Origin: Escherichia coli
Lineage (GTDB): Bacteria > Pseudomonadota > Gammaproteobacteria > Enterobacterales > Enterobacteriaceae
DNA length: 64,000 nucleotides
Reading direction: 5' to 3' (one strand)
NCBI RefSeq assembly: GCF_011045215.1
Contig: NZ_CP049201.1
Below are positions 49,469 to 50,521 of the stretch, in pieces (position 1 is the first letter of the stretch; each line of letters begins with the position of its first letter). Below the pieces are notes generated by a model. It was given only the letters and a program-made list of their open reading frames with translations. It searched no databases and was not told the DNA's origin. The position numbers were made by a program, and so were the translations under genes.

Positions 49469-50521
49469 ATGTTTTTAGCATCATTGTTGAGACGTATTGC
49501 ATTTAGTTACTACGATTATAAAGCTTATAATTTCAATATTGAAAAAACAGACTTTGTTGCCATCCATATTCCCGACCAGATTGGCGATGCTATGGCCATC
49601 TTTCCTGTTATTCGGGCGCTTGAATTGCATAAAATTAAGCATCTTTTAATTGTTACGTCGACAATTAATTTAGAAGTGTTTAATGCACTTAAACTTGAAA
49701 AGACTAAATTAACATTAGTCACAATGACTATGCAGGATCACGCAACATTAAAAGAAATAAAAGATTTAGCAAAGAACATAACACAGCAATACGGTACGCC
49801 GGATCTTTGTATAGAGGCGATGCGTAAAAAGAACCTGAAAACGATGATATTTATCAGTCAGTTGAAAGCAAAAACGAATTTTCAGGTTGTTGGTTTAACC
49901 ATGAAGTGCTACTCCCCTTTGTGCAAGAACGCGTCCCGGATGGATCAGAATCTCCGGGCTCCTGTACCCATGACATGGGCATTTATGATGCGTGAGGCGG
50001 GTTTTCCAGCAGTCAGGCCAATATATGAATTGCCACTAAGTGAGGATGTACTCGATGAGGTGCGCGAGGAAATGCGATCGTTAGGATCTTACATTGCGCT
50101 TAATTTAGAAGGTAGCTCGCAGGAACGTACATTTTCATTATCGATTGCAGAAAATCTAATAGCAAAAATTCAAAGTGAAACAGATATACCAATAGTGATC
50201 GTTCATGGACCAAAAGGGGAAGATAAAGCCAAAGTATTAGTGGATTGTTATAATAATGTCTACCGTTTATCCTTATCACCCTCGATTAAACGTTCAGCAG
50301 CAATCATAAAAGATGCTTATATCGCAATAACTCCTGACACCTCAATATTACATATGGCAAGTGCCTATAATACTCCCGTTGTTGCAATTTATGCTGATTA
50401 CAAAACGCGATGGCCCGCAATGGCCGATGTTTCGGAGTCAGTCGTCGTTGGGCAAAAAATTGACAATATAAGTCTGGATGAATTCGCAAAGGCATTAAAA
50501 AGTGTTTTGGCGAGAATATGA
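49469..50521 (+). CDS. yeeL: YeeL, heptosyltransferase-like GT9-family glycosyltransferase (350 aa), intact
   Basis: Single uninterrupted ORF 49469..50521; conserved position between shiA and yeeJ. Confidence 0.75.
   Translation: MFLASLLRRIAFSYYDYKAYNFNIEKTDFVAIHIPDQIGDAMAIFPVIRALELHKIKHLLIVTSTINLEVFNALKLEKTKLTLVTMTMQDHATLKEIKDLAKNITQQYGTPDLCIEAMRKKNLKTMIFISQLKAKTNFQVVGLTMKCYSPLCKNASRMDQNLRAPVPMTWAFMMREAGFPAVRPIYELPLSEDVLDEVREEMRSLGSYIALNLEGSSQERTFSLSIAENLIAKIQSETDIPIVIVHGPKGEDKAKVLVDCYNNVYRLSLSPSIKRSAAIIKDAYIAITPDTSILHMASAYNTPVVAIYADYKTRWPAMADVSESVVVGQKIDNISLDEFAKALKSVLARI

What the first reader, a model, noticed from the sequence alone, without database searches (positions are those of the whole stretch)
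49469..50521. yeeL is an intact 350-codon glycosyltransferase gene
From memory yeeL is a split pseudogene in K-12. Here a single open frame of 350 codons runs between shiA and yeeJ, so this strain may keep a functional GT9-family enzyme next to the large adhesin gene.
Basis: partly seen in the sequence, partly recalled or inferred. Interest (0 to 1): 0.3.

Follow-up and report, generated by a model that had tools for sequence, protein, structure and literature searches.

The report
Intact yeeL glycosyltransferase gene (ordinary)
This E. coli strain carries an unbroken copy of yeeL, a sugar-transferase gene of untested function that is knocked out by a single stop codon in laboratory K-12, but the unbroken form is the normal state in most E. 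coli and is already annotated in public databases.

Summary
Window 49469..50521 (+) is a 350-codon ATG ORF between shiA and yeeJ. In K-12 the same 1053-nt span carries one C->T change (CAA->TAA, Gln235->ochre), so K-12 yeeL is an "internal stop" pseudogene.

The protein is a divergent GT9 (GT-B) glycosyltransferase:
- Pfam PF01075 scores above its cut-off.
- The WaaC key residues are kept: D13=D40, D261=D290, H266=H295, and K192=R220 (a conservative change).
- All 100 family-invariant positions are retained.

The intact state is not special. The locus occurs in 5284 of 5426 complete E. coli genomes. Twelve of 15 sampled genomes have an intact gene. The exact protein is RefSeq WP_164475640.1. 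Median dN/dS among intact alleles is 0.16. The K-12 stop allele is a lineage allele found in 765 genomes, and independent losses also exist (L60* in 77 genomes; an IS truncation).

A functional link to the adhesin YeeJ is not supported. The two genes are convergent. yeeL persists where yeeJ is degraded. Homologues in other genera have no adhesin neighbour. TibC-type features are absent. Remote subfamily members lie in LPS-core/O-antigen-ligase clusters, which suggests a glycolipid acceptor. Verdict: real, already known, low interest.

The parts
49469..50521 (+). yeeL coding sequence, 350 codons plus TGA stop; intact GT9-family (GT-B fold) glycosyltransferase gene, 38.6% GC
49452..49462 (+). 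Shine-Dalgarno-like motifs (GGGAGG at 49452..49457; GAGG at 49459..49462) 6-11 nt upstream of the ATG
   Evidence: read from the sequence; function inferred
49586..49588 (+). Codon Asp40 of the G39-D40 motif, aligned with the WaaC G12-D13 catalytic base; invariant across the YeeL subfamily
   Evidence: hhalign; alignments
49646..49648 (+). Codon Leu60 (TTA), intact here; site of an independent nonsense allele (TAA) in strain EC15 and 76 other complete genomes
50126..50128 (+). Codon Arg220, aligned with the GT9-invariant WaaC Lys192 (phosphate-binding); always Arg or Lys in the subfamily
50171..50173 (+). Codon Gln235 (CAA), intact here; site of the K-12 lesion (TAA ochre, C->T at 50171)
50336..50353 (+). 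Codons D290-T291-S292-I-L-H295, the nucleotide-sugar-binding motif aligned with WaaC D261-T262-G263...H266
   Evidence: sequence read
47838..49154 (-). shiA (shikimate transporter), divergent left neighbour
50783..57859 (-). yeeJ (inverse autotransporter adhesin), convergent right neighbour; 2358 aa from the ATG as in K-12 (the mechanical ORF runs to a TTG at 57934). Context only, not shown to be functionally linked
50736..50763 (-). 12-bp-stem hairpin followed by a T-run on the - strand, between the two convergent genes; the likely yeeJ terminator
   Evidence: consensus scan only

Best explanation
Window 49469..50521 encodes an intact, probably functional, stand-alone glycosyltransferase of CAZy/Pfam family GT9 (GT-B fold, inverting, heptosyltransferase-like).

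Shown: this is the usual state of the gene in E. coli. K-12 and its phylogroup relatives carry a derived null allele (Gln235 CAA->TAA) that removes the C-terminal nucleotide-sugar-binding half (D290, H295).

Inferred mechanism, by analogy with WaaC: the acidic C-terminal Rossmann domain binds an ADP-heptose-type nucleotide sugar through R220, D290-T291-S292 and H295. Asp40 in the basic N-terminal domain (pI 9.5) acts as the base that activates an acceptor hydroxyl.

Inferred acceptor: most likely an anionic surface glycolipid such as an LPS-core or ligase-related glycan, not the neighbouring adhesin YeeJ. The gene is dispensable and is sporadically lost.
For: Intact ORF. K-12 lesion mapped.

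GT9 membership:
- Pfam PF01075 scores 29.3 bits against a cut-off of 22.
- hhalign of the YeeL family against K-12 WaaC/WaaF/WaaQ/WaaU gives probability 95.4%, E 1.8e-8, over 272 columns spanning both domains.
- The AF2 model has pLDDT 85.5 and pTM 0.83.
- Foldseek top hits are 3TOV, WaaF and WaaC, with E 1e-13 to 1e-10.

Residues: the positions invariant in the four K-12 GT9 enzymes (G12, D13, K192, D261, H266, A270, P274) map to G39, D40, R220, D290, H295, A299 and P303. All of these are invariant, or R/K at position 220, across the subfamily down to 22% identity. The window protein keeps all 100 family-invariant positions.

Selection and prevalence:
- The locus is present in 5284 of 5426 complete genomes.
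- Twelve of 15 sampled genomes are intact.
- Median pairwise dN/dS is 0.16.
- Full-length orthologues at 54-66% identity occur in Pseudocitrobacter, Erwinia and Rosenbergiella.

Acceptor inference:
- The N-terminal domain has pI 9.49 and the C-terminal domain pI 5.05.
- Remote subfamily members lie beside LPS-core/O-antigen genes. P0122 sits among GT1, a kinase-like gene, GT9, GT2, two Wzy_C genes, WecG and Bac_transf. P0126 is next to Wzy_C, Bac_transf and WecG. P0129 lies 32 nt downstream of a GT8 gene.
- P0151 is a Wzy_C::YeeL-like fusion protein.
Against: - No experiment or publication on YeeL function was found.
- Sequence similarity to characterised heptosyltransferases is low: NCBIfam HepI scores 38 bits against a cut-off of 185, and phmmer against the PDB is not significant.
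- The GT9-invariant Lys is Arg here.
- Neither donor sugar nor acceptor can be read from the sequence.
- No sigma-70 consensus match lies in the 314-nt upstream intergenic region, and the gene is AT-rich, so it may be poorly expressed or silenced.
- The gene is repeatedly inactivated: Q235* in 765 genomes, L60* in 77, an IS truncation in ET915, and many partial Shigella sonnei fragments.
- dN/dS is higher than for the neighbour shiA (0.04-0.10).
- Within the Enterobacterales the gene has no conserved glycan-synthesis neighbours, so the LPS inference rests on distant relatives (24-35% identity) from unidentified metagenomic organisms.
Confidence: 0.72

Rival explanations
1. YeeL is a dedicated protein glycosyltransferase for the adjacent adhesin YeeJ. 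This would parallel the autotransporter heptosyltransferases TibC/Aah, which heptosylate TibA/AIDA-I. The intact allele would then give a glycosylated, differently functioning YeeJ.
Against: - yeeL and yeeJ are convergent, not co-transcribed.
- yeeL is intact in genomes where yeeJ is a remnant, frameshifted or unannotated: 2013C-4187, AREA_502, JE86-ST02, UTAK-5, PSJ-16 and JNE21-009.
- yeeJ is intact in only about 40% of genomes (PMC5595812), whereas the yeeL locus is present in 97%.
- Homologues in Erwinia, Rosenbergiella, Pseudocitrobacter, E. albertii and others have no adhesin neighbour.
- YeeJ is surface-exposed and promotes biofilm in K-12, where yeeL is null (PMC5595812).
- The defining BAHT features are absent. 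There is no N-terminal beta-barrel. There is no four-Cys iron finger; the only C-lobe cysteine is the non-conserved C260. The protein is 350 aa rather than 406.
Confidence: 0.06
2. The open frame is intact but biologically inert. It would be a horizontally acquired, AT-rich, silenced cryptic gene on its way to decay, and its intactness in this strain has no phenotypic consequence.
For: - GC is 38.6% against about 50% in the flanks.
- There is no promoter consensus upstream.
- At least three independent inactivation events have spread through lineages.
- K-12 grows normally without it, and engineers use the locus as a neutral integration site.
- dN/dS is roughly 2-4 times that of shiA.
Against: - A dN/dS of about 0.16 across 13 intact alleles indicates purifying selection, not neutrality.
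- All 100 family-invariant residues are kept.
- About 80% of sampled genomes keep the full frame despite AT-rich sequence, in which stop codons arise easily.
- Full-length orthologues are conserved across genera, with invariant catalytic motifs.
Confidence: 0.2

Closest known systems
LPS heptosyltransferases WaaC (HepI) and WaaF (HepII) of E. coli, GT9 (PDB 2GT1/2H1H/6DFE, 1PSW), and the uncharacterised Veillonella GT9 3TOV
   Different: Only 12-15% identity. Scores are far below the NCBIfam equivalog cut-offs, so it is not an orthologue of WaaC, WaaF, WaaQ or WaaU. Lys192 is replaced by Arg and Gly263 by Ser. The subfamily has its own N-domain motifs (D16-Y17, HIPDQIGDAM, MRKKN, C147/C152 in a conserved low-confidence loop at 141-158, KTRWP). 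The gene lies outside the waa cluster as a singleton.
K-12 yeeL pseudogene (RefSeq: 'glycosyltransferase family 9 protein, internal stop')
   Same: Orthologous locus with the same 1053-nt span and the same neighbours amn-shiA | yeeL | yeeJ; 97.2% nucleotide identity over the gene (30 differences).
   Different: K-12 has TAA at codon 235, plus 13 amino-acid substitutions including A117G at a family-invariant position. The window copy is uninterrupted.
Bacterial autotransporter heptosyltransferases (BAHT: TibC, Aah)
   Same: GT-B-like catalytic core related to WaaC; in E. coli they are encoded near an adhesin gene (PMC4358343).

Membership tests
Glycosyltransferase family 9 (Pfam PF01075 / CAZy GT9) | Scores above the Pfam gathering threshold | tested here: met
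   29.3 bits against a cut-off of 22, but only residues 232-321 match. Remote subfamily members score 35-52 bits.
Glycosyltransferase family 9 (Pfam PF01075 / CAZy GT9) | GT-B fold (two Rossmann-like domains), closest to solved GT9 enzymes | tested here: met
   [not shown]
Glycosyltransferase family 9 (Pfam PF01075 / CAZy GT9) | N-terminal Gly-Asp catalytic base (WaaC G12-D13) | tested here: met
   G39-D40 aligns with G12-D13. It is invariant in 19 subfamily sequences down to 22% identity.
Glycosyltransferase family 9 (Pfam PF01075 / CAZy GT9) | Invariant phosphate-binding Lys (WaaC K192, K-x-W motif) | tested here: inconclusive
   The aligned residue is Arg220 (R-T-F). The position is always R or K in the subfamily. 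This is a conservative change whose effect on function is untested.
Glycosyltransferase family 9 (Pfam PF01075 / CAZy GT9) | C-terminal D-T-G-x-x-H-(L/I)-A-A-A...P donor-binding motif (WaaC D261, T262, H266, A270, P274) | tested here: met
   D290, T291, H295, A299 and P303 align with it and are invariant. G263 is Ser292 here.
Glycosyltransferase family 9 (Pfam PF01075 / CAZy GT9) | Transfers heptose (or another sugar) from a nucleotide sugar with inversion | not testable with these tools
   Requires an enzyme assay.
LPS heptosyltransferase I/II/III orthologues (NCBIfam TIGR02193, TIGR02195, TIGR02201, RfaQ/RfaC/RfaF equivalogs) | Scores above the equivalog cut-off | tested here: not met
   Best score is 38.3 bits against 185.3 (HepI). 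The others score 20 bits or less against 134-583.
Bacterial autotransporter heptosyltransferases (BAHT; TibC/Aah) | N-terminal flattened beta-barrel domain (TibC residues 1-97) | tested here: not met
   The model starts with helix 2-13 and then runs straight into Rossmann strand 29-34. Feature definition from PMC4358343.
Bacterial autotransporter heptosyltransferases (BAHT; TibC/Aah) | Iron finger: four conserved Cys in a C-lobe insertion (TibC C339/342/358/370) | tested here: not met
   YeeL cysteines are C114, C147, C152 and C260. Only C260 is in the C-lobe, and it is not conserved.
Bacterial autotransporter heptosyltransferases (BAHT; TibC/Aah) | Conserved genetic pairing with its autotransporter substrate | tested here: not met
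   The genes are convergent. yeeL is kept where yeeJ is degraded. There is no adhesin neighbour in five other genera or loci.
yeeL pseudogene (K-12 type) | Premature stop at codon 235 (TAA) | tested here: not met
   The window has CAA (Gln) at 50171..50173 and no internal stop.

The most novel reading that the evidence does not exclude
YeeL is a fifth E. coli GT9 enzyme, still uncharacterised, that adds a non-stoichiometric heptose (or another sugar) to the LPS core or to a ligase-dependent surface glycan. On this reading, the Q235* null allele carried by K-12 and about 14% of sequenced strains has hidden this modification from decades of K-12-based LPS chemistry. Repairing or deleting yeeL would then change phage, serum or antimicrobial-peptide susceptibility.
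Probability: 0.25. Interest if true: 0.55.

Novelty: already known. Interest (0 to 1): 0.15.

Why it matters
The practical message is small. yeeL in K-12 is a lineage-specific null allele of a gene that is otherwise widespread, under selection and apparently catalytically competent. The habit of treating yeeL as a neutral "pseudogene" integration site therefore applies only to K-12-type strains. The gene remains a true unknown. It is an orphan GT9 enzyme present in about 97% of E. coli genomes with no assigned donor, acceptor or phenotype. Comparing natural null alleles (Q235*, L60*) with intact alleles gives a ready-made genetic handle for anyone who wants to assign a function. The intactness in this particular window carries no surprise.

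Tried and rejected
- Direct phmmer of YeeL against PDB sequences gave only a non-significant WaaF hit (E 1.5). A family profile improved this only to E 0.07 for WaaC. Profile-profile and structure comparisons were needed instead.
- Four literature searches for yeeL found no functional study. Most 'yeel' hits are author names or uses as a K-12 integration site.
- The promoter scan found no sigma-70 consensus in the shiA-yeeL intergenic region, so nothing can be said about expression.
- The Rfam gathering-threshold scan of the whole window found nothing in or around yeeL.
- I looked for a conserved operon partner among Enterobacterales homologues. An MFS transporter lies upstream on the same strand in Erwinia and Rosenbergiella. 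It is absent at the E. albertii, P0073 and Pseudocitrobacter loci, so I did not treat it as a functional partner. I did not test whether the two MFS genes are orthologous.
- The hypothesis that YeeL glycosylates YeeJ was considered and rejected as the main reading; see the rival explanations.
- The window's own genome is not in the RefSeq complete-genome set. The best match over 24 kb is 98.9%, so the strain was not identified beyond the GenBank protein accession QIF13193.1.
- P0123 sits on a contig too short (1.6 kb) to give any context.

Full report
**Observation.** The ORF listing returns an ORF at exactly 49469..50521 on the + strand: ATG start, 350 aa, TGA stop. It lies between shiA (47838..49154, -) and the large yeeJ ORF (50783..57934, -; 2358 aa from the ATG that corresponds to the K-12 start). 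The ATG is preceded by GGGAGG (49452..49457) and GAGG (49459..49462). The gene is AT-rich, at 38.6% GC against about 50% in shiA and yeeJ. That makes an uninterrupted 350-codon frame even less likely to arise by chance.

**The K-12 lesion.** Megablast of 49200..50800 against 5,426 complete E. coli genomes finds the locus in 5,284 of them. In a K-12 record (NZ_CP064678.1) the same 1053-nt span is annotated 'glycosyltransferase family 9 protein', pseudogene, 'internal stop'. Translation shows a single stop at codon 235. A base-by-base comparison shows 30 substitutions, no indel, and the lesion itself: C->T at the position equivalent to window 50171, CAA(Gln)->TAA. The split comes from an in-frame ochre codon, not a frameshift. 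The truncation removes residues 236-350, which include the donor-binding motif.

**How unusual is the intact form?** It is not unusual.
- The exact K-12 61-mer centred on the TAA occurs in 765 of 5,426 genomes. These include natural isolates (strain C, and bovine, chicken and human isolates), so it is a lineage allele and not a laboratory artefact.
- The annotation of 15 other genomes, chosen at even steps down the similarity ranking, shows 12 intact genes and 3 pseudogenes: K-12 Q235*; EC15 with an independent TTA->TAA at codon 60; and ET915 truncated by IS elements.
- The EC15 allele is present exactly in 77 genomes.
- The window's exact protein is already in RefSeq/GenBank (WP_164475640.1, QIF13193.1). 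It belongs to a 90%-identity cluster of 10,923 sequences named 'glycosyltransferase family 9 protein'.
- Among 13 intact alleles the median pairwise dN/dS is 0.16 (range 0.08-0.39). This indicates purifying selection, though weaker than on shiA (0.04-0.10).

**What the protein is.**
- Pfam PF01075 (Glyco_transf_9) is matched above its gathering score (29.3 against 22), but only over residues 232-321.
- NCBIfam heptosyltransferase equivalogs are matched far below their cut-offs. YeeL is therefore not an orthologue of WaaC, WaaF or WaaQ.
- An 18-sequence family alignment (Escherichia, Pseudocitrobacter, Erwinia, Rosenbergiella; 52-97% identity) shows 100 invariant positions. The window protein keeps all of them.
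- AlphaFold2 run on this alignment gives pLDDT 85.5 and pTM 0.83. The model has two Rossmann-like domains and one low-confidence but sequence-conserved loop, 141-158, which carries invariant C147 and C152.
- Foldseek against the PDB ranks GT9 structures first: 3TOV, WaaF 1PSW and WaaC 2GT1/2H1H/6DFE, with E 1e-13 to 1e-10.

**Catalytic residues.** The four K-12 GT9 enzymes (WaaC, WaaF, WaaQ, WaaU, taken from the K-12 waa region) share invariant G12, D13, K192, D261, H266, A269-A270 and P274 in WaaC numbering. A profile-profile alignment of the YeeL family against these four (probability 95.4%, E 1.8e-8, 272 columns spanning both domains) gives the following mapping:

| WaaC | YeeL |
|---|---|
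| G12-D13 | G39-D40 |
| K192 | R220 |
| D261-T262 | D290-T291 |
| H266 | H295 |
| A270 | A299 |
| P274 | P303 |

In a broader alignment that includes remote subfamily members at 22-35% identity, G39, D40, D290, T291, H295, S298, A299 and P303 remain invariant, and position 220 is always Arg or Lys. From established knowledge of WaaC, which I recalled rather than re-derived here, D13 is the catalytic base and K192/D261 bind the ADP-heptose. The signature is therefore intact apart from a conservative Lys->Arg change that is family-wide and not specific to this strain.

**Relation to YeeJ.** I tested whether that adjacency means anything.
- The two genes are convergent, separated by 262 nt that contain a strong hairpin terminator for yeeJ.
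- yeeL is intact in genomes where yeeJ is a remnant, frameshifted or unannotated.
- Published work found intact yeeJ in only about 40% of genomes, and showed that YeeJ is surface-exposed and promotes biofilm in K-12, where yeeL is null. That paper mentions neither yeeL nor glycosylation (PMC5595812).
- Homologues in Erwinia, Rosenbergiella, Pseudocitrobacter, E. albertii and another enterobacterium have no adhesin neighbour, and their contexts differ from one another.
- The features that define autotransporter heptosyltransferases are absent. [quoted passage not shown] YeeL has none of them.
I therefore rate the YeeJ-glycosylation idea at about 6%.

**Clues to the real acceptor.** An exhaustive profile search of 1.84 billion representative proteins finds only about 17 full-length YeeL-type clusters before the hits grade into generic GT9 C-terminal matches. 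Where remote members have usable context, they lie among surface-glycan genes:
- P0122 lies among GT1, a kinase-like gene, GT9, GT2, two Wzy_C (O-antigen-ligase family) genes, WecG and Bac_transf.
- P0126 lies next to Wzy_C, Bac_transf, WecG, GT4 and a flippase.
- P0129 lies 32 nt downstream of a GT8 gene.
- P0151 is a single polypeptide that fuses a Wzy_C domain to a YeeL-like GT9 module.
Together with the basic N-terminal domain (pI 9.5, against 5.05 for the C-terminal domain), this favours an anionic glycolipid acceptor of the LPS-core or ligase-related type. This step is inference from distant relatives. The donor sugar and the acceptor are not shown.

**Rival: an inert gene.** Several points keep a 'cryptic, decaying gene' reading alive, at about 20%. 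These are the AT-richness, the lack of a recognisable promoter, the repeated lineage-level inactivations, the many partial Shigella sonnei fragments, and the fact that K-12 tolerates the loss. Purifying selection and conservation across genera argue against it.

**Verdict.** K-12 is the exception. Novelty: already known. Interest: low (0.15). What remains of interest is that YeeL is a widespread orphan GT9 enzyme of unknown function, with natural null alleles available for testing.

Noticed in passing
window 50783..57934 (-), 58170..58245 (-), 59237..59326 (+): yeeJ is intact here (2358 aa from the ATG, the MG1655-type length). It lies directly downstream of tRNA-Asn (asnT), a known integration hotspic according to PMC5595812. 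A tRNA-Ser(cga) follows. Three further tRNA-Asn genes lie at 40462, 42870 and 44694.
   Followed up: partly
window 50736..50763: A 12-bp-stem GC-rich hairpin sits between the convergent yeeL and yeeJ, with its T-run on the - strand, so it is the likely yeeJ terminator. yeeL itself has no obvious terminator or sigma-70 promoter match.
   Followed up: no
L009 8001..9059 (E. albertii); L008 8001..9083; L004/L005 8001..: YeeL homologues sit at different chromosomal sites in different Enterobacterales: between a tonB-like gene and yciA in E. albertii, between maeB and the eut operon in another genome, and downstream of an MFS_1 transporter on the same strand in Erwinia and Rosenbergiella. Together with the low GC, this suggests a mobile singleton gene.
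   Followed up: partly
L024 1955..4288 (protein P0151): A 777-aa metagenomic protein fuses an O-antigen-ligase-family (Wzy_C) membrane domain to a YeeL-like GT9 module. It lies next to a GT4/polysaccharide-deacetylase fusion gene.
   Followed up: partly
[not shown]
   Followed up: no
L001 3270..4322 (K-12 yeeL): Besides the stop codon, the K-12 allele carries A117G at a position invariant in the 18-sequence family alignment, and R157S at a nearly invariant one. This is consistent with relaxed constraint after inactivation.
   Followed up: partly
L012 3447..3449 (strain EC15) = window 49646..49648: A second, independent nonsense allele of yeeL (Leu60 TTA->TAA) is present exactly in 77 complete genomes from humans, poultry and wildlife. 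In ET915, yeeL is truncated by IS30/IS3 elements and shiA also carries an internal stop.
   Followed up: yes
window 46282..47892 (-): The mechanical amn ORF extends to 536 aa from an upstream ATG and overlaps the 3' end of shiA. The annotated AMP nucleosidase is 484 aa, so the extension is probably not translated.
   Followed up: no
window 45000..46500: A low-GC stretch (36-40%) lies upstream of amn, near the tRNA-Asn at 44694..44769. It was not examined.
   Followed up: no
window 1207..1330 (-), 3627..3701 (+): Rfam finds the histidine operon leader and the enterobacterial sRNA STnc240. This places the window in the his-yee region of the E. coli chromosome.
   Followed up: no
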